Shown here in pieces: positions 6,413 through 54,654 of a stretch of 64,000 bases of DNA (its first letter is position 1; each line of letters begins with the position of its first letter). Source of the stretch: a virus. The notes under the pieces were generated by a model, which searched no databases, was not told where the DNA came from, and saw only the letters and a list, made by a program, of their open reading frames with translations. Both the position numbers and the translations under genes were made by a program. The DNA lies in the IMG/VR virus record IMGVR_UViG_3300031857_000123, positions 4,915-68,914 of that record. The stretch is one strand, 5' to 3'.

Positions 6413-6439
6413 CATTATTAATCTACTAAAGGTAATTAA

Positions 6440-43386: not shown

Positions 43387-43499
43387 GTGATTGGGTATGG
43401 TTATGGTTGTTGCGTTAAAAGAATATTATAACAAAAAGTAGTTACAGTTTCAAGTGAATATTTTCGCAAACAAAAAACCCACCTAAACGGTGGGTGGTT

Positions 43500-43574
43500 T
43501 GGTGCGCTAGACTGGAATCGAACCAGTACTCGATCGATTATGAGTCGACTGCTTTGCCTTTAAGCTACTAGCGC
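43500..43574 (-). tRNA. tRNA with CAT anticodon (Ile2 or elongator Met)
   Basis: Cloverleaf GCGCTAG/CTAGCGC, loop CT-CAT-AA, encoded CCA; followed by a terminator at 43472-43495. Confidence 0.9.
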
Positions 43575-43723
43575 AAGGTTTTCATGATTTCTGACCGCTG
43601 TTCAGGAGTGTAACGAACCCAGTTTATGACTTGTTCCAGCGTGCGTTTGCATGTGGTACATTGCTGCAGTTGGGGGTCTAACAAACACCGTTGCTGACAG
43701 GGACTTTCAATCTTCGAACTCAA
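43568..43723 (-). CDS. DUF1289/YdhL-like small Cys protein (not in ORF track)
   Basis: Manual translation: IESPCQQRCLLD...CTTCKRTLEQV..W...PEQR. Confidence 0.7.
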   Translation of the reverse strand: MSSKIESPCQQRCLLDPQLQQCTTCKRTLEQVINWVRYTPEQRSEIMKTLR

Positions 43724-43841
43724 CGTAGTCTTCTTTGCCTACGCCACATTCTGGGCATTCAAAATCGTCTGGCAAATCTTCCCAACGACCTTCTAGTTCT
43801 TCATTGTGAACGTGGTCACATACTACACAAATTCGTGTCAT
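43707..43841 (-). CDS. Rubredoxin (not in ORF track)
   Basis: Manual translation MTRICVVCDHVHNEELEGRWEDLPDDFECPECGVGKEDY; ATGA overlap with rubrerythrin. Confidence 0.9.
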   Translation of the reverse strand: MTRICVVCDHVHNEELEGRWEDLPDDFECPECGVGKEDYVEFED

Positions 43842-44290
43842 TGTACGGTCTCCCAGACTTGTTGATATGCTTCTGCATGACGTTGCTCGACACGCTTGAG
43901 TGCTGCAAAACGCTTTTCAGCTTTGGCCAATACTTTGGCAAATGCTTCAGCATGTTCACGTGACTCAGCAGTTTGATGACGCACCTCAATTAAGGCTGCT
44001 TCGTTGTTTTCTCGTTCTGCGGCTTCTTCCATGCGAGGATACATTTCAGTATACTCGTAGGTTTCGCCTTCAATGGCTTTTTCCAAGCATACTTTGGTTG
44101 AGGGTCGCCCAATAAGTAACTCAAGATGACCCCAAGCATGTTTTAGTTCCTGGTCGGCTGTATGCTCGAAGTGTTTTGCAACATCTTCGAATCCATCTTC
44201 ACGTGCAATTTTAGCAAAGTAGCGATACTTAATATGAGCCATAGACTCACCTGCTAGTGCACTCTCTAAATTTTGTAATGTTAGTGACAT
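43838..44290 (-). CDS. Rubrerythrin (ferritin-like di-iron protein)
   Basis: NL..A.AGES.A..KY.YFA..A..DG, E..HA, AIEGETYE...MYP, E..HA. Confidence 0.92.
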   Translation of the reverse strand: MSLTLQNLESALAGESMAHIKYRYFAKIAREDGFEDVAKHFEHTADQELKHAWGHLELLIGRPSTKVCLEKAIEGETYEYTEMYPRMEEAAERENNEAALIEVRHQTAESREHAEAFAKVLAKAEKRFAALKRVEQRHAEAYQQVWETVQ

Positions 44291-44361
44291 AGTTATAAAT
44301 AAAAAATCCCCGAAACAGTACTTATTATACTAGATTCAGGGACATGGTTCAAGTGTAGATT

Positions 44362-44436
44362 TGGTACATCCTGACAGTTTCGAACTGCCGACCCTCTCGG
44401 TGTAAACGAGACGCTCTACCACTGAGCTAAGGATGC
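44362..44436 (-). tRNA. tRNA-Val(TAC)
   Basis: Cloverleaf, TCTCG-TTTACAC-CGAGA, CCA. Confidence 0.93.
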
Positions 44437-44437
44437 A

Positions 44438-44511
44438 TGGAGCGGGGTACGAGGATCGAACTCGTCTCACTAGCTTGGAAGGCTAGAGCACAGCCACTAT
44501 ACCAACCCCGC
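44438..44511 (-). tRNA. tRNA-Gly(TCC)
   Basis: CTAGC-CTTCCAA-GCTAG, U73, CCA. Confidence 0.93.
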
Positions 44512-44726
44512 GTTTAATTTAACATTTGTGGAACATACTCAGTTCCAGCGCCACGTGCGCCTGGTTTCCCTACCATGTCAGCATAGTCTGAAACCATGGT
44601 AACATACTGCATACCTTGCTTACGCAGAAGATCACAATAAATAAGTGCAGATTGTAGTTGTACGATCTCTGTTGAGCAAGCACTGCCCAAGTCGTTTGTC
44701 CAGTATATTTTATACATAATTGTTTG

Positions 44727-44801
44727 TGGAGCAGGATAGGAGGGTCGAACTCCTGACATTCTCGTTGGCAACGAGACATTCTACCACTGAATTAATCCTG
44801 C
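44727..44801 (-). tRNA. tRNA-Gly(GCC)
   Basis: TCTCG-TTGCCAA-CGAGA, CCA. Confidence 0.93.
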
Positions 44802-45110
44802 TTAAAAGGGTACATCGTCATCTAAGATACTGCGAATCATTTCACGTTCGCGCTTGACTAAGTCGTCTTCGAGCCAAGGTTTGATTTCTTCTTCGATGAA
44901 TCGTTGCTGAGCCTTATACCCAGCGTGTTCTTGTATGGTTTCGGTAACAATCTTGGTAAACTTAAATAATCCAGACTTTTCAGCCCAGATCAGGTATTCG
45001 TAGTGGTCTGGGATACAATCACATACTCGGCAACCTTGTAGTTTGCCTACCATAATTTTGTCTTGCATGTCTAAGAGTGGAGACTTTAGTTTTGAGAATC
45101 CAATTGCCAT
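44802..45110 (-). CDS. Hypothetical protein (GK..G..V.D.....YL.W motif)
   Basis: ORF between tRNAs, ends DDVPF. Confidence 0.5.
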   Translation of the reverse strand: MAIGFSKLKSPLLDMQDKIMVGKLQGCRVCDCIPDHYEYLIWAEKSGLFKFTKIVTETIQEHAGYKAQQRFIEEEIKPWLEDDLVKREREMIRSILDDDVPF

Positions 45111-45430
45111 TACCAGTGTCTCCATACGCCTGCTACAATAAAGCAATTTGTGCCAATATAACTTAACACAATTAGTGTTCTGATAATGGCTACCACATCA
45201 GCTTCGCAGTCAGTATTTCCAGCTTTGGCGCCTAGGGCATTTGCCCAAAGTCTCCAAAATTTTCTCATGCTTGTTGCTCTGCTTCTAGCTGTTCAAGCCT
45301 ATCGGCTGCTTCTTCTAGCAAGTCTGCTATACGGTCTGGTTTGCCCTCTTGCACCGATTTTCTGGTAGCAATCTGACGACGTATTTCAGCACGTTTTCGT
45401 AGTCTGTAGATTAGTGTTTCCATAATTACT

Positions 45431-45533
45431 CCATATATAACCACACTAGGTGTCAAGGCTTCTCACTACGCCTGTTCGCGACTAGTACACTAGACACCAC
45501 CGTGGAGTTAAGGCTTAGTGTGGTTATATATGG
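45431..45533 (-). ncRNA. Long-stem-closed structured RNA candidate (E7)
   Basis: 18-bp perfect terminal stem CCATATATAACCACACTA that includes the CCA of tRNA-Ser. Confidence 0.6.
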
Positions 45534-45622
45534 CGGGTAGCAGAGGAGTCGAACCCCATCCCGTTTCCGAGAACCCAGTTTTCAAGGCTGGTCGCAGGAC
45601 CAACCCCGCTGCATTACTACCC
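45531..45622 (-). tRNA. tRNA-Ser(TGA)
   Basis: Loop CT-TGA-AA, long variable arm, G73, CCA. Confidence 0.9.
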
Positions 45623-45628
45623 ACTATT

Positions 45629-46213
45629 TTATTCTTGTTTTGCTTCTGATTCACGCTTGGCTTGCATAGCTTGCAGCCGCTTGACCACTTCGTCCGAACC
45701 CATCCAAATGTCTTTGTTGTGCAACATACTGGAGATTTCTTCGCGGGTTAAAAAGTCTTGGTATACTTCAGTCATGAAGTTTTCTGACCAAGTACGTTCA
45801 AACTGTAGCTGATCGTACATTTCGCCGCCTTTGCCAAATGTTCCAGCCGAATAGTTGTGAAACATAAACAAGCTGTGTGGCGTGACTTCTTGCGAATGAC
45901 CGTGTAGGAAGATCATGGTGGCTGCACTCATGCAAGCACCTTCTACACTGCACACAACAGTAGCATCTGTGTCCGACATTACTCGTAAGAACTGTAGTGT
46001 GGTAAAAAGATCACCACCAGGACTATTGATATAAATGCGAATTGTGTCGGCGGCCGATGCGTTACGAATAATGTCAAACCACTCAATGTATTCCTCGGAA
46101 TCTTGAATTGGTCCTGACAAATAAAACTCATGAACGTGTGCGACTGGCTTTGTGAAATTGGTTGAAAACTTGTTGGATTCAAACAATTTAGGGTCGAGAA
46201 TATTAGACTTCAT
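45629..46213 (-). CDS. ClpP-like serine protease
   Basis: YL.G.I, YINSPGGD, G.C.SAAT.I, FM.H. Confidence 0.85.
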   Translation of the reverse strand: MKSNILDPKLFESNKFSTNFTKPVAHVHEFYLSGPIQDSEEYIEWFDIIRNASAADTIRIYINSPGGDLFTTLQFLRVMSDTDATVVCSVEGACMSAATMIFLHGHSQEVTPHSLFMFHNYSAGTFGKGGEMYDQLQFERTWSENFMTEVYQDFLTREEISSMLHNKDIWMGSDEVVKRLQAMQAKRESEAKQE

Positions 46214-46223
46214 AAGTTCCTTT

Positions 46224-46307
46224 ACTATATTTAAGTACTCTAGCTAGCCAAGGAGCCCTTGCTGTTAGGCAAGGTGGGGTTTTAACCCAAAAGTACTTAA
46301 ATATAGT
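46224..46307 (-). ncRNA. Long-stem-closed RNA candidate with permuted-tRNA (Y-RNA-like) layout (E6)
   Basis: 16-bp terminal stem enclosing T-arm-like, closed acceptor-like and D-arm-like hairpins. Confidence 0.55.
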
Positions 46308-46642
46308 GCCAGTATTCTGTTACGAGGAACTGGCCAAACCCTAAGCAGCAATTAAGCTGCTAAAGCGTAAACTTGATCGTTTGCGTTTATTTTTGTTTTG
46401 CTTCTGCAAATGGGAACAACCCCAATCTTAAGGCTTCTGCTTTACCTAGTTGTCTACGTCTCTACTCTTAGCCCAATCGATCCTGTGTCAGGCCCATCAA
46501 AAGAAAACTGAATTCAGGCTCTATGTCCTGACCATATGCTTACGCCGTGATGCACGTTGTACACCGTGTCAATTTTCTTTTGGTGGACCTGGCGGGCACT
46601 GCCCCCGCGTGTCGAACTCTTTTGGGTCGGCTTCATACAACC
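46308..46642 (-). ncRNA. ssrA: Circularly permuted (two-piece) tmRNA, tag ANDQVYALAA
   Basis: Acceptor piece ending CAGGTCCACCA at 46581 precedes a coding piece starting GGGCCTG at 46495 (G3-U70, A73); tag ORF 46384-46352 follows ATAAAC. Confidence 0.9.
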
Positions 46643-46733
46643 ATATTTAAGTACTCTAGTTTGGATTCAAACCTTGTTCTAGTCTTGTCGATCTGCGCTT
46701 CTCACAGTGCTGACCAGAGTACATAAATATGGT
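46640..46733 (-). ncRNA. Long-stem-closed structured RNA candidate (E5)
   Basis: ~20-bp terminal stem including the ACCA of tRNA-Thr, one G-U pair on the minus strand. Confidence 0.55.
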
Positions 46734-46803
46734 GCCCCATGACAGAATCGAACTGCCGTAACCTGATTACAAAACAGGTGTAATACCATTATACTAATAG
46801 GGC
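46730..46803 (-). tRNA. tRNA-Thr(TGT)
   Basis: Loop TT-TGT-AA, CCA. Confidence 0.92.
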
Positions 46804-46878
46804 TGGAATAGGTGACAGGATTCGAACCTGCATTGAACGGATTTGCAATCCGACGCGTAGCCGTTCCGCCACACCTAT
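46804..46878 (-). tRNA. tRNA-Cys(GCA)
   Basis: Loop TT-GCA-AA, U73, CCA. Confidence 0.92.
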
Positions 46879-46879
46879 A

Positions 46880-47083
46880 TTAAATTTGACGAGCGCGAAC
46901 ACACTGTTCAAACTGATTAAACGTGCGCTCAAACTTCAGCTGATACATTTGCTTTAGTCCAATCAGGTAATTCATACGCTGATCTTCGTCCATATTGTCG
47001 TGCATATCCAAATACAACTGAATGTCATCACAAACATTCCAGCATTGCATAATACCTTGTTCTAAGTCAAAACGATCAGTCAT
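46880..47083 (-). CDS. Hypothetical protein (DRFDLEQ.IM.CW motif)
   Basis: ORF between tRNAs. Confidence 0.55.
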   Translation of the reverse strand: MTDRFDLEQGIMQCWNVCDDIQLYLDMHDNMDEDQRMNYLIGLKQMYQLKFERTFNQFEQCVRARQI

Positions 47084-47084
47084 G

Positions 47085-47555
47085 TTAGTTTGCCAATATA
47101 AATTTTAAACGGTCAGCAGCATAGCTTGCTGCAAAAGCTCGGGGCTTTACTTGAGCGTCAATGTTACAAGTACCTTTGATATATCCAACTGCTTGCTGTA
47201 CAACAGCAGAACTCTTGTATCGCTCGTTGGGATTAATGTCTAGGTGTACTTCTACATGACGATCTTGTAAGACCTCTGATAGTTCATGAAATAGGTCGCT
47301 TACTTTGTAAACTTCATTCATTAATCGCATACTGGGCTTGTTTGCTTTTTGATCCCAGTCACGTTCACGAGTTACACTTCCAAAGATTTTACACCCATGA
47401 CAACCATCAATATGCACAACAACTGCCAGGGTATAGTCAGCGTGCCATACGCCGTTAACTTTAACGCGTTCTGAATCTGCACCTAAGTAAACTCGGGTTT
47501 CAGGACTCTGTGCTGCAATAAAGTCTCGGACTTCTTGGATGTTGAATTCGTACAT
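47085..47555 (-). CDS. RNase H-like (YkuK/DUF458 family) protein
   Basis: YLGADS, RL..EV, EVHLDIN, KP.AFAAS.AAD; ATG 47555 avoids overlap with tRNAs. Confidence 0.75.
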   Translation of the reverse strand: MYEFNIQEVRDFIAAQSPETRVYLGADSERVKVNGVWHADYTLAVVVHIDGCHGCKIFGSVTRERDWDQKANKPSMRLMNEVYKVSDLFHELSEVLQDRHVEVHLDINPNERYKSSAVVQQAVGYIKGTCNIDAQVKPRAFAASYAADRLKFILAN

Positions 47556-47568
47556 AGTATGTGTTAAG

Positions 47569-47645
47569 TGGAGGGTCTGGAGAAAGTCGAATTCCCAACC
47601 TCTTGGTTCGTAGCCAAGTGCTCTGATCCATTGAGCTACAGACCC
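47569..47645 (-). tRNA. tRNA-Arg(ACG)
   Basis: CTTGG-CTACGAA-CCAAG, CCA. Confidence 0.92.
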
Positions 47646-47648
47646 TTG

Positions 47649-47722
47649 TGGCAGAGGATAGAAGAATCGAACTTCTGACAACGGAATCAAAATCCGTGGT
47701 TATACCATTTAACTAATCCCCA
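47649..47722 (-). tRNA. tRNA-Gln(TTG)
   Basis: ACGGA-TTTTGAT-TCCGT, CCA. Confidence 0.92.
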
Positions 47723-47730
47723 ACAAAATA

Positions 47731-47805
47731 TGGCTCCAAAGGCAGGGATCGAACCTACGACCAATTGATTAACAGTCAACTGCACTACCGCTGTGCTACT
47801 TTGGA
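47731..47805 (-). tRNA. tRNA-Asn(GTT)
   Basis: Loop CT-GTT-AA, G73, CCA. Confidence 0.93.
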
Positions 47806-47906
47806 ATATTTAATTCTAGTGCCTGGTCGCAATCTCCAGGTAGCTTCAGCAATGGAAGGAACATTGCCTACACACTATAGCCAGTGAATTCACTAGAATT
47901 AAATAT
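47806..47906 (-). ncRNA. Long-stem-closed multi-branch RNA candidate (E4)
   Basis: 16-bp perfect terminal stem ATATTTAATTCTAGTG enclosing three hairpins. Confidence 0.6.
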
Positions 47907-47996
47907 GCTGCTTACGATATACAGCGTGGCACTATCGTGGCCACCGATTGGATTACGGACGCTCTAACCGGAACGGCACGGACCTAAGGCAGGTTT

Positions 47997-48071
47997 TGGC
48001 GGTCTTAAGGGGTAACGATCCCCTTCTACAGCAGTGACAGTGCTGTGTGCGTCCATGAACACTTTAAGACC
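47997..48071 (-). tRNA. tRNA-Asp(GTC)
   Basis: CAGCA-CTGTCAC-TGCTG, G73, atypical T-loop ATCGTTA. Confidence 0.88.
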
Positions 48072-48075
48072 AGAT

Positions 48076-48159
48076 TGGTACGACTGAAGGGACTTGAACC
48101 CTTAATCCTTGCGGCGATTGATTTTAAGTCAATTGTGTATTCCATTCCACCACAGTCGC
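48076..48159 (-). tRNA. tRNA-Leu(TAA)
   Basis: ATTGA-CTTAAAA-TCAAT, variable arm, CCA. Confidence 0.92.
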
Positions 48160-48164
48160 GTTAT

Positions 48165-48251
48165 TGGTGGTTGCTCTCCGACTCGAACAGAGAAGGCCAG
48201 CGGCAAGAGATTTACAGTCTCCCCCCGATACCATTACGGGACTAAGCAACC
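48165..48251 (-). tRNA. tRNA-Tyr(GTA)
   Basis: Loop CT-GTA-AA, variable arm, CCA. Confidence 0.9.
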
Positions 48252-48302
48252 GAAAGAATAATAATTATACCGCGTTTAACAAGAAAAGGCAAATCTAAAT
48301 TT

Positions 48303-48376
48303 TGGCATCCCCCAAGAGACTCGAACTCTTACTAACGGTTTTGGAGACCGCCGTGCTGCCATTACACCAGGGAGAA
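48303..48376 (-). tRNA. tRNA-Trp(CCA)
   Basis: GCGGT-CTCCAAA-ACCGT, G73, CCA. Confidence 0.9.
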
Positions 48377-48384
48377 ACAATGTT

Positions 48385-48459
48385 TGGTGGTTTTGAGTAG
48401 ATTCGAACTACTGACCTAATCCGTATGAAGGATGTGCACTACCGCTGTGCTACAAAACC
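48385..48459 (-). tRNA. tRNA-Met(CAT), elongator-type
   Basis: Loop TT-CAT-AC, G1-C72, CCA. Confidence 0.88.
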
Positions 48460-48710
48460 AAAAGCCAGAGACACGCTCTGGCTGAGTTATAAGTGCCGGT
48501 TACATTCTCCGGCGACACATTTCGTTGTGCCTGAAGACATTGACGCTGTTTAAGTTCCTTAAAGGGGCATAGTCTGTAGCCTTGAGTAAACAGATACACA
48601 GTTATTTTTGTGTCAGGATAACTTTAACCCCGTGAGAGCAGCCCATCTTGTTTTCGCTTCAGCGGACGCAGGACAGTGGTATTAGCACTGATTTGTTTAC
48701 AAGCCTGCAA
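48460..48710 (-). ncRNA. ~250-nt structured non-coding RNA candidate
   Basis: Spacer between two tRNAs with no ORF in the track and several GC-rich hairpins. Confidence 0.45.
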
Positions 48711-48711
48711 T

Positions 48712-48782
48712 TGGTTGCGGGGGAAGGATTCGAACCTTCTAGGCGGAGCTTATGAGACTTGCCTCTACCCTGACTCCCCGCG
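48712..48782 (-). tRNA. Atypical initiator-type tRNA-Met(CAT)
   Basis: CGCGGGG/CCCCGCA-ACCA with C1:A72 mismatch and a normal T-arm; shortened D-arm and irregular anticodon stem. Confidence 0.7.
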
Positions 48783-48966
48783 ATTTTTTACACCATTGTG
48801 TGGTGGCTGTTAGCATCACGAACTTTAACATAATGTTCGTATTGCTCAATCCAGTAGTTTAGCTCTTTGCTATTCTGTGGATTTTTGTCAGCCAAGTACT
48901 GTTCTAATGGTTCGTGTTCTGGACTAAAAACTGATTTAAGCACTCGTAGTGCATAGTCTAGGCCGT

Positions 48967-49200
48967 TCATTTTTGGTTAACGAACTCATAGAACTGCTTG
49001 CTTTTAGCAACCATGTCATTAAAGTCAAATGGCTTTGGCATGAACTTGGCAAGTTGTTCTTGACCCATTAGGGCTTTGTCTTTGGTATTATCAAAGATTT
49101 CTTGTGCAAACTCTACTGAGGCTGCGTATTCTGCTTGCATTAGTTCAGCAGTCATCTTGAGAATTTCAAGACGAATTTCAAAAGGAGATTTATTACTCAT
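48967..49200 (-). CDS. Hypothetical protein (KSPFEIRLE.L.M...FY.FV family)
   Basis: ORF between tRNAs. Confidence 0.55.
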   Translation of the reverse strand: MSNKSPFEIRLEILKMTAELMQAEYAASVEFAQEIFDNTKDKALMGQEQLAKFMPKPFDFNDMVAKSKQFYEFVNQK

Positions 49201-49269
49201 GGTAGTTCCTGTGTGTTGTGTAAAGTGTAGGCTTTGCACCTACTTGCGGCATCTAGGCCGTGTGAAATA

Positions 49270-49344
49270 TGGTACTGAGGGAGGATACCGAGACCTCGAC
49301 CCCTCGCTTATCAAGCGAGTGCTCTGCCGCTGAGCTACCCCAGT
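49270..49344 (-). tRNA. tRNA-Ile(GAT)
   Basis: CTCGC-TTGATAA-GCGAG, atypical T-loop, CCA. Confidence 0.87.
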
Positions 49345-49349
49345 GTATT

Positions 49350-49424
49350 TGGTACTCCCGAACGGTTTCGATCCGTCTTTTCCGCCTTGAAAGGGCAGCG
49401 TCCTAGCCAGTAGACGACGGGAGC
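49350..49424 (-). tRNA. tRNA-Glu(TTC)
   Basis: CTGCC-CTTTCAA-GGCGG, CCA. Confidence 0.9.
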
Positions 49425-49486
49425 ATTGTTTGTTTAAAATATAATTATACAGCCAATGGGCTGAACAATCAAGATAAGAATTCGAG

Positions 49487-49562
49487 TGGTGCAACCCACA
49501 GGAATCGAACCTGTTTCAATGGCTCTTCAGACCACCGCTATGACCACATCAGCTAGAGTTGC
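49487..49562 (-). tRNA. tRNA-Phe(GAA)
   Basis: Loop CT-GAA-GA, CCA. Confidence 0.92.
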
Positions 49563-49575
49563 AATCGCAATCTTT

Positions 49576-49650
49576 TGGGCAGACAGTAGAGTTTCGATCT
49601 CTTTCTACGACTTTCACAGAGTCGGGTGCTCCCATTACACTACCTGCTGC
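49576..49650 (-). tRNA. tRNA-His(GTG)
   Basis: CGACT-CTGTGAA-AGTCG, G-1:C73, irregular acceptor stem. Confidence 0.85.
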
Positions 49651-49783
49651 ATTTTTGGGTTTTGCATGAATAGCTGCTTCGGCAGCCTTACACGCGGTTA
49701 GGGTATCAAACTGGCAACGGCCTCGTTCGCCGTATTTGTACTTACCATTGTTGCACTTTATACAGGGCATATATTCCTTTGTT

Positions 49784-49870
49784 TGGCGGGAGATACAGGA
49801 ATCGAACCTGTCAGCCTATTTCTAAACGAAGGCTTAGCAAGCCTCTGTTGCACCTTGCAACACATCTCCC
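49784..49870 (-). tRNA. tRNA-Ser(GCT)
   Basis: Loop TT-GCT-AA, variable arm, G73, CCA. Confidence 0.9.
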
Positions 49871-49871
49871 G

Positions 49872-49993
49872 TACCATATTTGAACACACTAGCACCCACT
49901 TTTGCAACGTGTACTTTGTTGCCTAGACGTGTTGCCTTGCAAGGATTAAACAAGTGGTTGAACGCCAGCTTGCTAATGTGCTCAAATATGGTA
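49872..49993 (-). ncRNA. Long-stem-closed structured RNA candidate (E3)
   Basis: ~23-bp terminal stem including the ACCA of tRNA-Lys, two G-U pairs on the minus strand. Confidence 0.6.
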
Positions 49994-50063
49994 GACGCAC
50001 AGAGAATCGAACTCTGATTTGCTGGTTAAAAGCCAGCTACTTTAGCCGTTAAGTTATACGTCC
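49989..50063 (-). tRNA. tRNA-Lys(TTT)
   Basis: GCTGG-CTTTTAA-CCAGC, CCA. Confidence 0.92.
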
Positions 50064-50176
50064 AGGCTGCGCTTCCATTTGCCACGAAGCTGCTTGTGGC
50101 TTTTTGTATGTGAACCACTGCCGCCACGCTTCATCAAAGCTAAGGCAACATGATTCCGGGGTTTTCGTGTTTTCAT
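50054..50176 (-). CDS. Small basic peptide (KPRN.VA...G.H.K)
   Basis: SD AAGGA; stop codon lies inside tRNA-Lys. Confidence 0.55.
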   Translation of the reverse strand: MKTRKPRNHVALALMKRGGSGSHTKSHKQLRGKWKRSLDV

Positions 50177-50186
50177 AAATTTCCTT

Positions 50187-50261
50187 TGGTGGACCGTGGG
50201 AGGATCGAACTCCCGCTTCATGCTTGCAAAGCACATGTGCTACCATTATCACTAACAGCCC
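50187..50261 (-). tRNA. tRNA-Ala(TGC)
   Basis: G3-U70, loop TT-TGC-AA, CCA. Confidence 0.93.
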
Positions 50262-50267
50262 AAATTG

Positions 50268-50351
50268 TGGTGCGTCGAGAGAGACTCGAACTCTCAATCC
50301 TTTCGGCACTGGCTTCTAAGACCAGCGTGTATACCATTCCACCACCAACGC
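50268..50351 (-). tRNA. tRNA-Leu(TAG)
   Basis: Loop CT-TAG-AA, variable arm, CCA. Confidence 0.93.
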
Positions 50352-50516
50352 ATTATACTTTTATATCTACGTTTGTGCCTTTGTTAGGGTCTACATTTCT
50401 GTAATACACCACTTGTTGCACAAACTGTTTATTGTTACTGTCTACCCTAGTTGTATAGACTATTTCTCGTACCTTACCCATGTAAGGTGAGAATGTTCTT
50501 GATACGCTAATTGTTT

Positions 50517-50702
50517 CCATATTGTTGTATACTTTGTTTACTACCCACCCCGCTAAGGGTGTGTTTCTGGATTATCGTGTTCATGACGCACGCCTATGCC
50601 AGAACCCAGACCATACCCACCAACTTTCCCGGGTGTTGATGTTCTCAAGCCTGCAAGGTTCCATAACTGAATTGGCCACTAGCAAAGCATACAACAATAT
50701 GG
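50517..50702 (-). ncRNA. 186-nt long-stem-closed RNA candidate (E2)
   Basis: 20-bp terminal stem CCATATTGTTGTATGCTTTG with one G-U pair on the minus strand. Confidence 0.6.
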
Positions 50703-50707
50703 TCTAA

Positions 50708-51217
50708 TTACTCAGAACCATGTGTAATTCTGTGACAATTAGCACACAGAACTTTTAAATTACTAATAGAGTTATTTTCTCTATCTTTATCTATATGATG
50801 TACTTCTAGTGCTAAGACGTTGTCAAAACCACATATAGCGCATTTGCACCCATAATGTTTAAGTGCACGAGTTCTATAGGTAGAAGCACCATCTTTTGTT
50901 CTAAAGTAGGTGTTTGAACAAGCTCTAGAACAAGTTACTTGCTTATTACTATCGCGAACTTCTGTGGTAAACATACTACCACAGCAAACACATTTTCTTT
51001 GTTCAAGCTTTAATGGAGGGATTCCGTTAATAGTAAAATGAGATGTGTCCAATTCATTACCGTCTAAGAATTGTTTGACGATTGTGATATATTGCCCTTT
51101 TTTAGCGTATCCAAGTTTATTTAAAACTTGTGCTGTGGACAACGAAGTATCTACATACTCAAATAATTTTCCAGAAACTAAAGCTTGCTCTAGTTTATTG
51201 ATTAAAACTTTACTCAT
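50708..51217 (-). CDS. HNH homing endonuclease
   Basis: C..C and CS..C zinc motifs, CAICG, EVHH...R.NN...NL..LC.NCH; own promoter at 51240-51268. Confidence 0.88.
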   Translation of the reverse strand: MSKVLINKLEQALVSGKLFEYVDTSLSTAQVLNKLGYAKKGQYITIVKQFLDGNELDTSHFTINGIPPLKLEQRKCVCCGSMFTTEVRDSNKQVTCSRACSNTYFRTKDGASTYRTRALKHYGCKCAICGFDNVLALEVHHIDKDRENNSISNLKVLCANCHRITHGSE

Positions 51218-51286
51218 AAAATCTCCTGCTCATGTATATATTATACATCAATAGCAAGAATTTTGCAAGTTAATTTTTGGTCACGG

Positions 51287-51365
51287 TGGTCCGAGTGGAA
51301 GGATTCGAACCTTCGATCTCTGCTTCCCAAAAGCAGCGGATTAAACCGGACTTTCCTACACTCGG
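51287..51365 (-). tRNA. tRNA-Pro(TGG)
   Basis: CTGCT-TTTGGGA-AGCAG, C1-G72, CCA. Confidence 0.92.
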
Positions 51366-51484
51366 ATGTGTTAGTTTATTGAAGCAAACTAACAAAACTT
51401 ACTGGAATACGCAAGACTGTCCAGTGCAACAAAGAACAATAATTATACCTGAAATGTAAAATAACTACAAGTGTAAAATTTTAA

Positions 51485-51653
51485 TGGTGGATCGGGCAGG
51501 ACTCGAACCTGCTAACTAAAATTATACAGCCCCGTAAGCAATATATTCGAATTCAGCCCACCTGTAACTTCATGTTTGCGACAGAGGAAGTAATCCTAGG
51601 GTGAAGGGGTTGTATGCCGGCTCTATGCTTTAACCATGTTAAGCTACCGATCC
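51485..51653 (-). ncRNA. tRNA-shaped RNA with ~95-nt insert replacing the anticodon loop
   Basis: Perfect GGATCGG/CCGATCC-A-CCA acceptor, D-arm GCTT/AAGC, T-arm GCAGG-TTCGAGT-CCTGC. Confidence 0.8.
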
Positions 51654-51754
51654 ATATATTAGTACTTATTTTAACACAAGGGCGATTAACTCCCACCGGA
51701 TATATAGATTATCACTCTTTTGACGGCACGTATGTATAAGTACTAATATATGGA
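51651..51754 (-). ncRNA. Long-stem-closed RNA candidate (E1)
   Basis: 19-bp perfect terminal stem TCCATATATTAGTACTTAT. Confidence 0.6.
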
Positions 51755-52156
51755 GACCATCCCTAAATGGTCAACATATAGTCTTATTACTGAGGGCGAC
51801 AGCCCCACTGTATCTTAGAATATCCAAACATCCCTTCTACAGCGGCAGGGCGTTCTTTTGGTTGACGGGGCTTACACCCGCCTCGAACGTAACTTATTCC
51901 TAGGGGCTAGAACTTGTCAGAGGAACGGGACTTAATTACTATTTTTATAGACTCTGAGTGCTTCAGCGTCAAGGCTAGCATAAACTCGGAAACTATCGCG
52001 ACCAACCTTGTCATAAAGATCGTTTGCCATTTGCTCAAGATTTACAAGTTGCTCGATTGAGATCAAGGTACAAGTAACATATCGTGACAAGAAAGCATCA
52101 ATTAAAAAATCGCGTGAATAGCCTGCCATGTTTTCTCCAAATCAGCCTATATTATA

Positions 52157-52486
52157 TCAATAAACAACTGTTTCGTCAAATGTCAAAACTCTGATCTTAA
52201 CATCACCACGTTCTTCAGCTCGCGCAAGCCAGGTGTTTAGTACACTGTGCATAAACGAACTCATGTGATAGTTGTGTGCATGACAACGATAAGTGCTGCC
52301 ACTATACCCATCAAACTCAAGCCAGTCACCATCACGGCGTACTTGAGTAATCCCACTATTAAGTTTCCAGCTATCACTGCCCATGTAACCACCATACCAA
52401 CCAGCAAAAACTTTGCGCGTGGGTGTGGTTAGTTCAGGTGCGTCAAATTCTAGCACAACCCAAACATCTGGTGTGTATTCACTCAT
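52157..52486 (-). CDS. Conserved phage hypothetical protein
   Basis: PD.WV, W.GGY...DSWKLNSGI, F.G.SGS.Y.C motif common in lytic phages. Confidence 0.65.
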   Translation of the reverse strand: MSEYTPDVWVVLEFDAPELTTPTRKVFAGWYGGYMGSDSWKLNSGITQVRRDGDWLEFDGYSGSTYRCHAHNYHMSSFMHSVLNTWLARAEERGDVKIRVLTFDETVVY

Positions 52487-52712
52487 ATGTATCCTCTTTA
52501 GGCCAGTTCTTGAGACTTTTATCTACTTCAATTTCTTCAATGGAATATTCGGGCATAGGAAACCTACGCTCTAAGGTTTCATAAGAAACACCATGAAATA
52601 CCGCGACAACACTATTCCAGCCGGGTATTACTTTATTTACAATGTAAACAGTACTCATATTATTTCTCCGAATCAGACTATATTATAATCTGATTCAAGG
52701 ACTTAATTCAAG

Positions 52713-53108
52713 TCAATATTTTGTTTGTTCAGCCAGTCGACGGTACTCGCCGCCAGTAGGATGTATACCATCTTTGGTGGTTTGTGTAATCACAAGTGTA
52801 ACGTCCCCATACATTTGCGCAACTTTTACCACAGGTGTTTGCTTGATGGTATTATTAGCTGGCAGTATCCAAGTTACACGACCACTAATACGATCACGTA
52901 ACTCCGCAATTTCTTTGAATGTTTTATCTGCCAACCAATCATTAGTGCCAAGACTAATAACGGTGTGTTGCGCTGCTGGCATTGTAGCCGCGAATCGTTT
53001 ATTCCAAGCAGTACTGGTAATACCCACACGTGCAATCAGCTCACACTGTGGACGGTGTTGGGCAACGCCCACGGCTATAGAGTCGCCAACTATCAAACAT
53101 TCTAACAT
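52713..53108 (-). CDS. SGNH/GDSL hydrolase-like protein
   Basis: GDSI, LGTND, DGIHP...Y. Confidence 0.8.
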   Translation of the reverse strand: MLECLIVGDSIAVGVAQHRPQCELIARVGITSTAWNKRFAATMPAAQHTVISLGTNDWLADKTFKEIAELRDRISGRVTWILPANNTIKQTPVVKVAQMYGDVTLVITQTTKDGIHPTGGEYRRLAEQTKY

Positions 53109-53114
53109 ATATTT

Positions 53115-53189
53115 TGGTCCGCCGTGCAGGAATCGAACCCACATTAAGGGCTTAGAAGACCCCTGTATTATCCATTATACGAACGGCAG
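53115..53189 (-). tRNA. tRNA-Arg(TCT)
   Basis: GGGGT-CTTCTAA-GCCCT, CCA. Confidence 0.92.
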
Positions 53190-53194
53190 ATGTT

Positions 53195-53641
53195 TTAGCT
53201 GTAAATACGCATAATCGGCTTGTAAACACTAAATAGTTCACGGTTGTAGATTTCGACTAGCTCTGGGTCCATGTAGTCGTAATTGTCTGGAATATCAAGC
53301 ACAATGGCTTTTGAATTCATTAAGTCAACCAGGTCGTAGTCGGCCACAAACTCCAGCTCAAGCTCGTCTTTGTTGTGCGGATTCACAAACACAATCTTGT
53401 CTGCCCAGTGAATCAAGTTGGCTGAACACGGCACTAGTGCGTAGTTAAAGTTTGATCCACAACTACGGGCATTGATGCCGTGTTGTGCGGCTAGAGTAGC
53501 GCCGGTTGGGCTTCGCAAGAGGCCAGCACTGCACACAAAAAGCCAGCGAGCAGCGTGACCTTGATGTGAGTTAGCATATGGAGCTGTGGTTTTAAAGATT
53601 GCAGCATTTCGCGTGCCTGCGGCAAAGTATTTGTCTGTCAT
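53195..53641 (-). CDS. Low-molecular-weight protein tyrosine phosphatase-like protein
   Basis: LFVC-x5-RSPT (CSAGLLRS), WAD.I, LDIPD.Y.YM.P.L. Confidence 0.82.
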   Translation of the reverse strand: MTDKYFAAGTRNAAIFKTTAPYANSHQGHAARWLFVCSAGLLRSPTGATLAAQHGINARSCGSNFNYALVPCSANLIHWADKIVFVNPHNKDELELEFVADYDLVDLMNSKAIVLDIPDNYDYMDPELVEIYNRELFSVYKPIMRIYS

Positions 53642-54654
53642 TTTAGTAGTTGTTGTGCAAGTGGTGTACTTGCTAAGTTTTTTTGTTTTGATTCACACAT
53701 TATATCGGCAACTGGACTAAATGTCAAGGCCCAGTTATTCACATCCTGATTCCAGTAGTAATCACTGTGAGCACGAAGCTTGGCGGATGTAAAGCCTAGA
53801 GCTTTGAGTTGCTGCAAGTCTGGTCTAGTGTTTGGGTCGTGTTCGACCAAGCAGTCTTCACGGCTGACACTATAGTGTACGACAGGACGCACACCACGCC
53901 AGCTATCGCACACACGCTTAAAACGTTCATCAGTAGGTTCAATGTATTCTCCTGAGTTAATCCAGTGGTGGTGAATGTCAAGCACAAGTGCACAAGTGTC
54001 TACTAGTTCAAGACTAGCATCAAGACCCCAGGTAAACTCGGCATTTTCGATTGTTAGGCAGTTACGTGCTTCGGGGCTAAGACGACGCATGGCGGCTTTG
54101 ATGCCATTGGGACCTAGCTTACCGCCAACGTGCACATTGCACTTGAAGTCTTGAAACTGCTTGCCGTAACCCATGTAACGAATCAGGTCAGCATGATACT
54201 CAAATTCGGTAATACTATTCTCTACAACGCCAGGATTCTCACTTGCCAACACGCAAAACTGACCTGGGTGGAAGCTCAGACGAATATCGTGTTCGCGAGC
54301 AAAGTCGCCGCACATACCTAAGTGAGCTTCGAGCTTTGCAACAACATCTGATTCAAAGTAGAATGGCATATAGTCGTCATGAGTATATGCAGGCAACATA
54401 TCTGATGTAATACGAAACATACGCTGATTGTGCGGCTGCTTGGCAACCCACTTGAGCTGACGATAGAAAGCATTCAGGTTATGGTCAAGCAAACCCCACA
54501 GCTTACTACGCCAACCGTCCGGTGTCTGACGAGCAAGATATGTAATAGTTGTAGACTTGGTGTTCAAGTCTGGGTGTGCAGTATCATGCTCTGTTTGAAT
54601 TTTACAAGCAAAGCCAATGCGCTGAATGTTTTGATTAAAATATGTCATAGCCAC
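53638..54654 (-). CDS. uvsE: UV-damage endonuclease (UvsE/UVDE)
   Basis: IGFAC, FRI.S, RLSFHPGQF.VL.S, N.H.GG, TIEN, LDIHHH, AHSDY, MCESK.K. Confidence 0.9.
   Translation of the reverse strand: MAMTYFNQNIQRIGFACKIQTEHDTAHPDLNTKSTTITYLARQTPDGWRSKLWGLLDHNLNAFYRQLKWVAKQPHNQRMFRITSDMLPAYTHDDYMPFYFESDVVAKLEAHLGMCGDFAREHDIRLSFHPGQFCVLASENPGVVENSITEFEYHADLIRYMGYGKQFQDFKCNVHVGGKLGPNGIKAAMRRLSPEARNCLTIENAEFTWGLDASLELVDTCALVLDIHHHWINSGEYIEPTDERFKRVCDSWRGVRPVVHYSVSREDCLVEHDPNTRPDLQQLKALGFTSAKLRAHSDYYWNQDVNNWALTFSPVADIMCESKQKNLASTPLAQQLLK

What the first reader, a model, noticed from the sequence alone, without database searches (positions are those of the whole stretch)
45431..51754. Family of seven long-stem-closed ncRNAs interleaved with tRNAs, several pairing with the upstream tRNA's CCA
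Seen: seven non-coding units (45431-45533, 46224-46307, 46640-46733, 47806-47906, 49872-49993, 50517-50702, 51651-51754) are each closed by a 16-23 bp AT-rich terminal helix starting (CC)ATAT. Each encloses a different 50-150 nt structured payload. In three cases the helix includes the CCA of the preceding tRNA (Ser, Thr, Lys). Most internal mismatches are G-U on the minus (tRNA) strand, which argues for selection on RNA pairing. Two units share ATATTTAAGTACTCTAG and flank the tmRNA. Knowledge: T5 makes stable non-tRNA RNAs from its tRNA region, and long helices are RNase III-type processing signals. Inference: a modular cassette for releasing small RNAs (decoys or sponges for host defence or tRNA-targeting enzymes) from the tRNA polycistron.
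Basis: partly seen in the sequence, partly recalled or inferred. Interest (0 to 1): 0.82.

Follow-up and report, generated by a model that had tools for sequence, protein, structure and literature searches.

The report
Swappable small RNAs between phage tRNAs
Seven small non-coding RNA genes, each clamped shut by a long A/U-rich helix, sit among the tRNA genes of an uncultured freshwater phage; related phages swap the clamped inserts like cassettes, and phage T5's old 'stable RNAs of unknown function' turn out to be built the same way.

Summary
All seven units are real 16-23 bp inverted repeats at the stated coordinates. That makes 8 such stems in 7.2 kb, counting one inside the tmRNA gene, against 0 in the other 56.8 kb and 0.04 expected by shuffling. 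No unit matches Rfam.

Eighty related viral contigs carry 182 such units in about 75 payload clusters. Closing helices favour G-U over A-C on the tRNA strand, 99 to 29. Payload helices covary in the U4 and U6 families. One slot holds up to 7 payload families in different phages, and one family occupies several slots. In 54 of 61 tRNA-adjacent units the helix pairs the upstream tRNA's CCA. A sister clade has tight tRNA arrays with no units.

Phage T5's annotated stable RNAs RNAIII and RNAIV have the same architecture. Their annotated ends lie inside 20-bp helices, and T5 relatives swap payloads in that slot.

Best reading: co-transcribed structured small RNAs in a shared processing and stability helix, exchanged as cassettes. 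RNase III cleavage and any decoy role remain untested.

The parts
45431..45533 (-). U1. 18-bp closing helix and a 67-nt payload. The helix starts at the CCA of the tRNA-Ser(UGA) upstream.
   Evidence: Homologues in 6 of 80 loci. The family occurs in two slots with different outer stems.
46224..46307 (-). U2. 16-bp closing helix and a 52-nt payload. It lies between the tmRNA and the ClpP-like gene.
   Evidence: Homologues in 3 loci. 8 of 29 pairs have double changes in 3 sequences.
46640..46733 (-). U3. 21-bp closing helix and a 52-nt payload. The helix starts at A73-CCA of tRNA-Thr.
   Evidence: Homologues in 5 loci. In L014 and L018 the family sits in the pre-ClpP slot instead.
47806..47906 (-). 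U4. 16-bp closing helix and a 69-nt payload with three hairpins. Its 3' end abuts the first base of tRNA-Asn.
   Evidence: Family of 14 distinct sequences: 21 of 32 pairs have double changes, 100% of cells are paired, and 0 of 500 shuffles reach this.
49872..49993 (-). U5. 23-bp closing helix and a 76-nt payload. It starts in the tRNA-Lys 3' end and ends 1 nt before tRNA-Ser(GCU).
   Evidence: 5 sequences, 6 of 39 pairs with double changes.
50517..50702 (-). U6. 20-bp closing helix and a 146-nt multi-branched payload. The last 4 nt of the helix hold the ATG of a 55-codon ORF (50353-50520).
   Evidence: Covariance model R1 finds 24 full or near-full copies in 25 viral pattern hits. 20 distinct sequences, 38 of 53 pairs with double changes, 93.2% of cells paired.
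51651..51754 (-). U7. 19-bp perfect closing helix and a 66-nt payload. It lies between a hairpin ending in UCCA and an interrupted tRNA-like gene.
   Evidence: No homologue in the 80 loci. The same slot holds 3 other payload families in relatives.
46489..46591 (-). Intervening segment of the permuted tmRNA gene. It is an eighth case of the same design: a 23-bp A/U-rich helix that begins at the acceptor-piece CCA and closes a 57-nt insert.
   Evidence: (pair I2).
45536..45621 (-). tRNA-Ser(UGA). Its G73-CCA is paired in the U1 helix.
   Evidence: Rfam tRNA-Sec model scores 34.8 bits. ARAGORN at relaxed threshold calls tRNA-Ser(tga).
46730..46803 (-). tRNA-Thr. Its ACCA is paired in the U3 helix.
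49989..50063 (-). tRNA-Lys. Its 3' end is paired in the U5 helix.
47731..47805 (-). tRNA-Asn. Its 5' end, the RNase P site, is the base after U4.
49784..49870 (-). tRNA-Ser(GCU). It starts 1 nt after U5.
50708..51217 (-). HNH endonuclease ORF with its own promoter-like site. It is inserted between tRNA-Pro and U6.
   Evidence: Pfam HNH. Promoter-like site at 51268-51240. In 6 of 8 family members the unit follows tRNA-Pro directly. Only 1 of 80 loci has a homologue of this ORF.
46352..46642 (-). Permuted (two-piece) tmRNA gene, flanked by U3 and U2.
   Evidence: Rfam RF04321 at 97.5 bits. ARAGORN tmRNA*.

Best explanation
Each unit is a gene for a small structured RNA embedded in the phage's tRNA transcription units.

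The closing helix. A shared A/U-rich helix closes every unit. In the clade its median length is 19 bp, and the 5' arm consensus is CCAUAUUUWAGCACAYU. It usually begins at the discriminator base and CCA of the upstream tRNA, and it often ends at or near the 5' end of the next tRNA. I read this helix as a standard processing and stabilising module.

Proposed processing. RNase P at the downstream tRNA, together with a double-strand-specific cut inside the helix, would free the upstream tRNA. That tRNA's short trailer is then trimmed back to CCA. The most likely enzyme for the cut is host RNase III, because the phages encode none. What remains is the payload, capped by the leftover helix, as a nuclease-resistant small RNA.

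The payloads. They are independent, structurally constrained RNA modules. Recombination in the shared helix arms lets phages exchange payloads between slots and between genomes.

What is shown and what is inferred:
- Shown: the architecture, strand-specific selection for pairing, payload covariation, cassette exchange, dispensability for tRNA arrays, and the same design in T5's annotated stable RNAs.
- Inferred: co-transcription, the nuclease involved, accumulation as discrete RNAs in this phage, and the payload function. I guess the payloads are accessory host-takeover or counter-defence RNAs.
For: Real and non-random. 8 stems of >=16 bp lie in 7.2 kb, against 0 in 56.8 kb and 0.04 in shuffles. 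Fold z-scores run from -4.0 to -6.0.

One strand. All 652 tRNA and tmRNA genes called in 65 of 81 sources lie on one strand. On that strand G-U outnumbers A-C 99 to 29 in 140 distinct stems; 64 stems have more G-U and 9 have more A-C. The control outside the arrays gives 9 to 12.

Covariation in closing and internal helices:
- U4 family: 21 of 32 pairs, 100% of cells paired.
- U6 family: 38 of 53 pairs, 93.2% paired, 20 distinct sequences.
- Slid-partner controls give 31-44% paired.

Cassette behaviour:
- The tRNA-Thr to tmRNA slot holds 7 payload families in 18 loci, the pre-ClpP slot 4 in 7 loci, and the U7 slot 4 in 5 loci.
- Families F1, F3, F7 (U1), F10 (U3) and F13 (U2) occur in two or more slots.

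CCA anchoring:
- In 54 of 61 units that follow a called tRNA the helix reaches into the CCA.
- 46 of them also pair N73, and 42 of those 46 pairs are A-U.

The units are additions, not necessities. L024 and L025 (13 and 17 tRNAs) have none, have 4-12 nt spacers, and have a tmRNA without flanking units.

The experimentally annotated analogue, phage T5:
- RNAIII and RNAIV ('stable RNA with unknown functions') each sit in a 20-bp closing helix.
- RNAIII's helix starts with the GCCA end of RNAI and ends in tRNA-His.
- The annotated ends lie 8 and 6 nt, and 13 and 12 nt, inside the helices. That leaves 3' overhangs of 2 nt and about 1 nt.
- Six T5-like phages hold 3 different payloads in that slot behind a conserved 11-bp outer helix.

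No RNase III gene (PF14622) was found in the contig or in 4 near-complete relatives, so a host enzyme is implied.
Against: - No direct RNA evidence for this phage. Only contigs from 4 metatranscriptome runs could be laid. They cannot show ends or strand, and they may come from relatives or from contaminating DNA.
- RNase III is inferred from geometry alone, and the host is unknown. The CCAUAUUU start would also suit RNase E, from what I recall of its consensus, if that arm is cut before the helix closes.
- U7 has no homologue.
- U1, U2, U3 and U5 rest on 3-5 sequences each, with 6-8 covarying pairs.
- Part of the 'covariation' in closing helices reflects whole-arm swaps rather than point compensation.
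- A shared inverted terminal consensus and presence/absence polymorphism are also what a mobile DNA element would show.
- The sampled sequences are related, so counts are not independent events.
Confidence: 0.6

Rival explanations
1. The units are selfish, MITE-like DNA elements with terminal inverted repeats that colonise tRNA arrays. On this view the RNA folding is incidental.
For: - The arms share an inverted consensus across payload families.
- Units are present or absent among close relatives and missing from a sister clade.
- They occupy many slots.
- An HNH homing-type gene sits next to U6.
Against: - No direct repeats flank the seven units; flanks are printed.
- Each genome carries different payloads rather than many copies of one element.
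- The outermost pairs adapt to the upstream tRNA's discriminator base and CCA.
- Payload-internal helices covary.
- The mismatch bias is strand-specific.
- No tyrosine recombinase was found. Transposase families were not searched exhaustively.
- The HNH gene has a homologue in only 1 of 80 loci.
Confidence: 0.1
2. The helices are only processing or insulating spacers that help neighbouring tRNAs and the tmRNA fold and mature. The enclosed sequence is filler.
For: - The helices are anchored on tRNA ends.
- The tmRNA gene's own intervening segment uses the same design.
- No payload function is known.
Against: - Payload helices covary, and several unpaired stretches are invariant across 20 distinct U6-family sequences.
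- Related phages run arrays of 13-17 tRNAs and a tmRNA with 4-12 nt spacers and no units.
- Only 37 of 162 distinct units have a tRNA starting within 12 nt downstream.
- T5's RNAIII and RNAIV are annotated as accumulating stable RNAs.
Confidence: 0.12
3. The units are Y-RNA-like ligands of a Ro60 (Rsr) protein. The long terminal stem would bind Ro60 and the payload would recruit an effector.
For: - The general shape fits: 80-190 nt, with the ends paired in a long stem around a variable module.
- 2 of 4 near-complete relatives encode a TROVE-domain protein inside the tRNA array.
- In L006 that gene lies next to a YrlA-like RNA (RF02553, 35.1 bits) and between two stem-closed units.
Against: - No TROVE gene in the window's contig (65% complete) or in the other 2 relatives.
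- No YrlA or Y_RNA match to any window unit at E<=1.
- The bacterial Ro-site motif GNCGAA (passages of PMC4201824) is absent from all seven.
- The stems are fully paired rather than bulged.
Confidence: 0.05
4. The inverted repeats act as single-stranded DNA hairpins, as integron attC sites or replication and recombination signals do, and not as RNA.
For: A strand-specific G-T tolerance would also fit a hairpin in one DNA strand. The region shows cassette-like shuffling.
Against: - No integrase and no reverse transcriptase.
- The folded strand is the transcribed tRNA strand.
- The helices pair the tRNA CCA.
- T5's counterparts are annotated as RNAs.
- Multi-helix payload covariation is unlike attC variable regions, from what I recall of them.
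Confidence: 0.03

Closest known systems
Phage T5 stable RNAs RNAIII and RNAIV, as annotated in NC_005859
   Same: - They lie in the tRNA cluster on the tRNA strand.
- The units are about 120-128 nt, each closed by a 20-bp A/U-rich helix.
- RNAIII's helix begins with the GCCA 3' end of the upstream RNA and ends in the next tRNA.
- Their function is unknown.
- T5 relatives hold 3 different payloads in that slot behind a conserved outer helix.
   Different: - No sequence similarity: blastn of the whole region against 50,697 phage records listed only short tRNA-sized matches.
- The helix consensus is different.
- T5 has 2 such units for 23 tRNAs, while the window has 7 for 24 and its clade about 1 per 3 tRNAs.
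- T5's RNAs are annotated as observed molecules. The window's are not yet observed.
Phage T4 species 1 and 2 RNAs (rnaC, rnaD)
   Same: They are small stable RNAs of unknown function encoded at the end of the tRNA cluster, next to a homing endonuclease gene.
   Different: Their minimum-energy folds have no long closing helix, with 3 and 0 contiguous terminal pairs. My finder reports no stem of >=15 bp in the T4 region.
RNase III processing stems of rRNA operons and T7 early transcripts (recalled, not tested here)
   Same: A helix of about 20 bp formed by sequences that flank the released RNA. Ends lie inside the helix with a 2-nt 3' overhang, as T5 RNAIII's annotation shows.
   Different: Cleavage is unproven here. 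These helices are anchored on a tRNA CCA, are A/U-rich with a shared consensus, and enclose small exchangeable RNAs.
Y RNAs and YrlA
   Same: Small RNAs with the ends paired in a long stem around a variable module. A genuine YrlA-like RNA and a Ro60-like gene occur in the arrays of some relatives.
   Different: The window units lack the Ro-site motif, a tRNA-like T/D module, a neighbouring Ro60 gene and any Rfam match.
GOLLD and ROOL RNAs
   Same: Structured RNAs of unknown function encoded in phages, often near tRNA islands (passages of 10.1101/2024.12.08.627333).
   Different: Those are single conserved families. The paper puts GOLLD above 800 nt and calls ROOL large; about 600 nt is my recollection. 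Here there are dozens of 50-260 nt families in a common helix, and none matches Rfam.
MITEs whose inverted repeats fold in RNA (Correia, ERIC; recalled)
   Same: Short elements of 80-200 bp with inverted ends, lying in transcribed intergenic DNA.
   Different: No target-site duplication, no multi-copy identity within a genome, payload covariation, and ends that adapt to tRNA CCA.

Membership tests
Phage tRNA-cluster stable RNAs (T5 RNAIII/RNAIV type) | Encoded inside the phage tRNA gene cluster, on the tRNA strand, non-coding, about 100-190 nt | tested here: met
Phage tRNA-cluster stable RNAs (T5 RNAIII/RNAIV type) | Precursor closed by a helix of about 20 bp that takes in the CCA end of the upstream tRNA or RNA and reaches the next tRNA | tested here: met
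   Window. T5.
Phage tRNA-cluster stable RNAs (T5 RNAIII/RNAIV type) | Accumulates as a discrete stable RNA in infected cells | not testable with these tools
   Only contigs from RNA libraries were available. They cannot show ends or level.
Phage tRNA-cluster stable RNAs (T5 RNAIII/RNAIV type) | Sequence homology to the T5 or T4 RNAs | tested here: not met
   blastn against the phage collection gave only short matches. The listed rows cover at most 5% of the query, on tRNA genes or unannotated tRNA-sized stretches.
RNase III processing stem | Double-stranded helix of about two turns formed by the flanks of the released RNA | tested here: met
   16-23 bp in the window. The clade median is 19, IQR 17-21.
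RNase III processing stem | Cleaved by RNase III, leaving 2-nt 3' overhangs | not testable with these tools
   There is only the T5 annotation, where RNAIII's ends give a 2-nt overhang and RNAIV's about 1 nt. No phage RNase III gene was found.
Y RNA / YrlA | Ro60-site motif (GNCGAA) in the 5' strand of the stem | tested here: not met
   0 of 7 units. The motif is taken from passages of PMC4201824.
Y RNA / YrlA | Encoded within 4 kb of a Ro60 (TROVE) gene on the same strand | tested here: not met
   No TROVE match in the 68.9-kb contig. The contig is estimated 65% complete.
Y RNA / YrlA | tRNA-like T-arm and D-arm module, or a match to Rfam RF02553 | tested here: not met
   No YrlA match in window 43000-54000 at E<=1.
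MITE / TIR transposon | Target-site duplication flanking the inverted repeats | tested here: not met
   The flanks of the seven units are printed. There is no consistent direct repeat.
MITE / TIR transposon | Many near-identical copies within one genome | tested here: not met
   The seven window units fall in seven payload clusters.
MITE / TIR transposon | Cognate transposase or recombinase | tested here: inconclusive
   No Phage_integrase. Transposase families were not searched.
UG27-type variable ncRNA array | Adjacent reverse transcriptase | tested here: not met
   No RVT_1 in the contig or in 4 relatives. The feature is taken from passages of 10.64898/2026.09.22.753630.
Any Rfam 15 family | Covariance-model match | tested here: not met
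   Only the tmRNA and tRNA models touch the edges of the units.

The most novel reading that the evidence does not exclude
Phage tRNA arrays act as expression platforms for exchangeable RNA cassettes. A standard A/U-rich 'socket' helix, anchored on a tRNA's CCA end, lets unrelated phage lineages plug in, process and swap dozens of unrelated structured RNAs. This is seen in the freshwater clade and in T5-like Demerecviridae.

On this reading the payloads are fast-turning-over counter-defence or host-takeover RNAs, such as aptamer-like decoys for host nucleases or sensors. The arrays would then be the RNA counterpart of protein anti-defence islands, and the 50-year-old T4 and T5 'stable RNAs' would finally have a function.

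A further possibility: once freed, the 3'-UGG(N) tail of a unit could re-pair with tRNA CCA ends in trans.
Probability: 0.2. Interest if true: 0.85.

Novelty: new variant of a known kind. Interest (0 to 1): 0.68.

Why it matters
Stable small RNAs in the tRNA clusters of T4 and T5 have been annotated for decades without a function. This window ties them to a much larger natural data set, which offers three things.

1. **A shared architecture.** Units have a common, recognisable design, a CCA-anchored closing helix, that can be searched for in any phage.
2. **Selection on the RNA fold.** There are about 75 payload clusters, and the two largest families (U4 and U6) show clear covariation.
3. **Accessory-gene behaviour.** Units are swapped between slots, gained and lost among close relatives, and dispensable for the tRNAs themselves.

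That turns an old descriptive puzzle into testable questions: which nuclease releases them, what each payload binds, and whether payload repertoires track host defences. It also warns annotators that 'intergenic' DNA in phage tRNA arrays is largely RNA genes. If the payloads are counter-defence RNAs, this is a rich source of natural RNA inhibitors. The socket helix may also be useful for expressing stable designer RNAs.

Tried and rejected
**Known RNA families.** Rfam at gathering and at E<=1 gives nothing for the units.

**Cultured phages.**
- megablast hit only the tRNA-Ser of Pseudomonas phage PHB09. blastn hit 1103 records, and the 40 listed rows cover at most 5% of the query.
- The tRNA regions of PHB09, VCM, T4 and Xanthomonas phage BUDD have no stem of >=15 bp.

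**U6 family in bacteria.** A motif scan of genome contigs gave 25 hits.
- Many hits, including most of the Bacteroidota ones, lie in a conserved membrane-transporter ORF. I recognise it as RND/AcrB-like by eye.
- The best model score was 21.8 bits.
- Rfam found only one tRNA in the 8 loci checked.
- I treat all 25 as chance.

**Partner enzymes in the contig plus 4 near-complete relatives.**
- Not found: RNase III, reverse transcriptase, RtcB, RNA ligase PF09414, tyrosine recombinase.
- This removes support for circularisation by a phage ligase, a UG27-like cDNA system and an attC-like system.
- TROVE/Ro60 is present in only 2 of 5.

**PF04308 RNaseH-like ORF in the array.** It is not co-distributed with units. 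It is present in unit-free L025 and was not found in the fetched parts of L032 and L040, which have units.

**tmRNA enclosed by U3 and U2 arms.** This is not conserved. 1 of 12 loci reaches >=14 bp, with a median of 8.5 against 7 in controls.

**Metatranscriptomes.**
- 6 of the 24 runs listed are RNA runs holding small shares of the stretch.
- Four were laid, as contigs only, with many from relatives at 90-95% identity.
- They give no ends, strand or level. Low cover over U6 is not evidence of anything.

- Supplementary files were not requested. The supplementary tables of PMC4201824, which list phage YrlA loci, might bear on the Ro60 side-note.

**Literature.** Searches found no description of this architecture or of payload swapping. 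The 1980s T5 papers are not in the library.

Full report
**Setting**

The window is part of a 68.9-kb IMG/VR viral contig estimated 65% complete. ARAGORN finds 23 tRNA genes and a permuted tmRNA, all on the minus strand. Rfam confirms the tmRNA (RF04321, 97.5 bits) and 21 tRNAs.

The nearest cultured phages by DNA are Pseudomonas Otagovirus phages. They share only tRNA-sized stretches with this region. Runs that hold the sequence are mostly freshwater metagenomes.

Yes. The seven units are the best inverted repeats in the region. Arms are 16-23 nt and 90-100% complementary, with 52-146 nt between them.

A strand-symmetric stem finder of my own (seed 9, stem >=16, loop 25-230) finds 8 stems in 45000-52200. 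The eighth is the intervening segment of the tmRNA gene. It finds 0 in the other 56.8 kb of the window. In 200 dinucleotide shuffles the mean was 0.04 and the maximum 1.

Every unit folds with its ends paired. Z-scores run from -4.0 to -6.0, and 0 of 200 shuffles folded as well. Over the 133 helix positions there are 128 Watson-Crick pairs, 4 G-U on the tRNA strand, no A-C and one U-U.

U7 begins at a UCCA that follows a small hairpin. U6 begins with a CCA that is the end of tRNA-Pro in 6 of 8 relatives. In the window an HNH endonuclease gene with its own promoter-like site has been inserted between them.

No unit matches any Rfam family, even at E<=1.

**Relatives**

I used the ClpP-like ORF between U1 and U2 to fetch 80 related viral loci, out of 162 confirmed relatives. 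blastn finds homologues of six units:

| Unit | Loci with a homologue (of 80) |
|---|---|
| U1 | 6 |
| U2 | 3 |
| U3 | 5 |
| U4 | 15 |
| U5 | 6 |
| U6 | 12 |
| U7 | 0 |

A census with the stem finder (stem >=15) gives 182 stem-closed units inside the tRNA regions of 65 tRNA-bearing sources. The count includes two tmRNA intervening segments. Single-linkage clustering puts their payloads in 75 clusters, of which 45 are singletons.

Features of the 162 distinct units:
- Median helix 19 bp (IQR 17-21).
- Median unit length 103 nt.
- Arms 69% A+T, against 54% in payloads.
- 98 of the 5' arms align to a consensus CC-ATA-TTTW-AGCACAYT.

**RNA or DNA?**

All 652 tRNA and tmRNA genes lie on one strand. 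The finder treats G-T and A-C alike, so it has no strand bias. In 140 distinct stems it counts 99 G-U against 29 A-C on that strand. 64 stems lean to G-U and 9 to A-C. Stems outside the arrays show 9 against 12.

The two best-sampled payloads covary in internal as well as closing helices:

| Family | Distinct sequences | Pairs with changes on both sides | Cells paired | Shuffles reaching this |
|---|---|---|---|---|
| U4 | 14 | 21 of 32 | 100% | 0 of 500 |
| U6 | 20 | 38 of 53 | 93.2% | see note |

Note on U6. The sequences were gathered with a covariance model from 25 viral pattern hits, 24 of which were true hits. No shuffle reached the observed percentage paired or covariation score, and 2 of 500 reached the pair count. 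The alignment was fitted to the model, which favours the structure. The MAFFT alignment of 9 sequences gives the same picture: 35 of 53 pairs, 93.5% paired.

Slid-partner controls pair only 31-44% of cells. Several unpaired stretches of the U6 family are invariant.

The smaller families give 6-8 covarying pairs from 3-5 sequences. Sequences are related, so these counts are not independent events. Some closing-helix 'covariation' is whole-arm replacement.

**Cassette behaviour**

Slots can be recognised by their conserved flanks:
- The slot between tRNA-Thr and the tmRNA holds 7 payload families in 18 loci.
- The slot before the ClpP ribosome-binding site holds 4 in 7 loci.
- The U7 slot holds 4 in 5 loci.

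Conversely, several families appear in two or more slots. These are F1, F3, F7 (U1), F10 (U3), F11, F12, F13 (U2) and F19. When they move they keep their inner helix and payload but take on the slot's outer helix.

Homology between different occupants of a slot ends about 14 nt into each arm. This fits recombination within the shared arm consensus.

Contigs from RNA libraries of other samples also join across U2's payload and across U4. That fits variant occupants in relatives, but it is weak evidence.

**Anchoring on tRNA ends**

61 distinct units begin within a few bases of a called tRNA's end. In 54 of them the helix reaches into the CCA. 46 of them also pair the discriminator base, and 42 of those 46 pairs are A-U.

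In the window U4 ends at the base before tRNA-Asn, and U5 ends one base before tRNA-Ser. The terminal pairs therefore follow the neighbouring tRNA. This is not what fixed transposon ends would do. No target-site duplications are seen.

**The units are dispensable for the arrays**

Density is about one unit per three tRNAs in loci whose ClpP is >=70% identical: 123 units for 374 tRNAs. Seven more distant loci with >=5 tRNAs have none.

L024 and L025 have 13 and 17 tRNAs separated by 4-12 nt, and a tmRNA with no flanking units. The units are therefore additions to a working array and are not needed for tRNA maturation as such.

**The closest known thing: T5's stable RNAs**

The T5 record annotates eight 'stable RNAs' in its tRNA region, most of them with unknown functions. 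T4 annotates two. My finder picks out two of T5's.

*RNAIII.* It sits in a 20-bp helix, GCCACAAUUGAAAAUUCGUA paired with UGCGAGUUUUCAAUUGUGGC. The first four bases are the GCCA 3' end of RNAI, and the last bases belong to tRNA-His.

*RNAIV.* It also sits in a helix of about 20 bp.

*Annotated ends.* They lie inside the helices:

| RNA | nt inside helix at 5' end | nt inside helix at 3' end | 3' overhang |
|---|---|---|---|
| RNAIII | 8 | 6 | 2 nt |
| RNAIV | 13 | 12 | about 1 nt |

This is what a staggered double-strand cut followed by trimming of the upstream RNA back to CCA would leave. I could not read the original T5 papers.

*Conservation and swapping.* The RNAI-RNAIII-tRNA-His block occurs in 563 phage records. 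I compared T5 with five relatives picked across identity tiers, which is not a random sample. The slot holds three different payloads: 120 nt in three phages, 135 nt in one, and 77 nt in two. All sit behind the same 11-bp outer helix.

*Other cultured phages.* Aeromonas phage AhP_Mru1, which is T5-like, has two such units. Streptomyces phage StarPlatinum has one borderline unit. T4, PHB09, VCM and BUDD have none. T4's rnaC and rnaD have no long closing helix.

**How it most likely works**

*Shown:*
- a common CCA-anchored closing helix under strand-specific selection;
- independent payload folds under selection;
- exchange of payloads;
- dispensability for the arrays.

*Inferred:*
- The units are transcribed with the tRNAs. 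Five strong promoter-like sites on the minus strand split the region into several operons. Only U7 has a strong promoter-like site just upstream, and none is followed by a terminator-like hairpin.
- RNase P defines the 3' side wherever a tRNA follows.
- A double-strand-specific nuclease, probably host RNase III, cuts within the helix. No RNase III gene is found in the contig or in four near-complete relatives.
- This leaves a helix-capped stable RNA and a tRNA with a short trailer.

RNase E cutting the A/U-rich 5' arm before the helix closes is an alternative for the 5' cut. An abstract seen in a search listing reports that RNase E makes mature CCA ends of E. coli proline tRNAs (PMC5291269).

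Payload functions are unknown. Their turnover pattern resembles that of accessory or counter-defence genes. Phage tRNA regions already supply one anti-defence RNA: a T5 tRNA neutralises PARIS (PMC11464382, title and start of abstract only).

**Rivals**

- *MITE-like DNA elements.* This fits the shared inverted consensus and the patchy distribution. It does not fit the absence of duplications, the one-of-each payloads, the tRNA-adapted ends or the payload covariation.
- *Pure spacers.* This does not fit the payload conservation or the unit-free sister arrays.
- *Y RNAs.* This was worth testing, because 2 of 4 near-complete relatives carry a TROVE (Ro60-like) gene inside the array. In L006 that gene is preceded by a YrlA-like RNA with T-arm, closed stem and D-arm in the YrlA order (35.1 bits, below Rfam's cut-off of 69), and it is flanked by two stem-closed units. 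The window has no TROVE gene, no Ro-site motif and no YrlA match.
- *Other partner systems.* Reverse transcriptase, RtcB, an Rnl2-type ligase and a tyrosine recombinase are all absent.

**Verdict**

It is best filed as a new, highly diversified variant of the T5-type tRNA-cluster stable RNAs. Two features were not described in the papers I could search:
- a standard CCA-anchored socket helix;
- cassette-like payload exchange, seen in two unrelated phage lineages.

The mechanism of release and the function of the payloads remain open.

Noticed in passing
window 48460-48795 (minus strand): A conserved non-coding block lies here. It consists of a tRNA-like piece ending in CCA, then about 255 nt of structured sequence ending in a terminator-like hairpin (48483-48463) just before tRNA-Met. 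blastn finds it in 28 of 80 loci. No Rfam match. In RNA run X16 the bin 48494-48714 has summed contig depth 11320.8, against 0-550 in the other bins. This suggests a very abundant RNA.
   Followed up: partly
window 51485-51653 (minus strand): A tRNA-like gene with normal acceptor, D and T arms carries an insertion of about 82 nt in the anticodon loop, by ARAGORN intron mode. That is too short for a group I intron, from what I recall. It is conserved in 10 loci and starts where U7 ends.
   Followed up: partly
window 51755-51935 and 47907-47996 (minus strand): There are two more conserved non-coding stretches without a long closing helix. The first is in 9 loci and ends in a hairpin plus UCCA; an RNA-library contig of depth 826.7 covers 51782-51922. 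The second is 90 nt, 81-97% identical in 11 loci, and lies between tRNA-Asp and U4.
   Followed up: partly
L006 5246-7049 (relative of the window): A Ro60-like (TROVE) ORF at 5577-6887 sits inside the tRNA array. It is preceded by a YrlA-like RNA at 5443-5548 and flanked by stem-closed units at 5246-5435 and 6947-7049. A second relative (L085) also has a TROVE ORF. The window's Met-Trp slot is empty.
   Followed up: partly
window 50708-51217: An HNH endonuclease gene with its own promoter-like site is inserted exactly between the tRNA-Pro CCA and U6. Only 1 of 80 loci has a homologue. T4 (segB) and T5 (heg genes) likewise carry homing endonuclease genes in their tRNA clusters.
   Followed up: partly
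window 47088-47555 (minus strand): An ORF of Pfam family PF04308 (RNaseH_like, E 2e-17) lies inside the tRNA array and is conserved in 27 loci. It is not co-distributed with the units.
   Followed up: partly
window 46292-46307 with 46640-46655: The 3' arm of U3 and the 5' arm of U2 are complementary over 16 contiguous bp. The whole tmRNA could therefore be enclosed in an rRNA-style stem. This is seen only in this phage, in 1 of 12 loci.
   Followed up: yes
L143-L147 and L138 (T5-like phages): The slot between RNAI and tRNA-His in T5-like phages holds three unrelated inserts behind one conserved 11-bp outer helix. Payload swapping therefore also occurs in cultured Demerecviridae.
   Followed up: partly
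window 48176-48264 (minus strand): By eye this reads as a class II tRNA-Tyr(GUA)-like gene with a 7-bp acceptor stem, a T arm and a CCA end. Neither ARAGORN, even relaxed, nor Rfam calls it.
   Followed up: no
window 50353-50520 and 45265-45456 (minus strand): The ATG of a 55-codon ORF, conserved in 5 loci, lies in the last four bases of the U6 helix. A small ORF also starts just after U1. The helices could therefore also affect translation of downstream genes.
   Followed up: no
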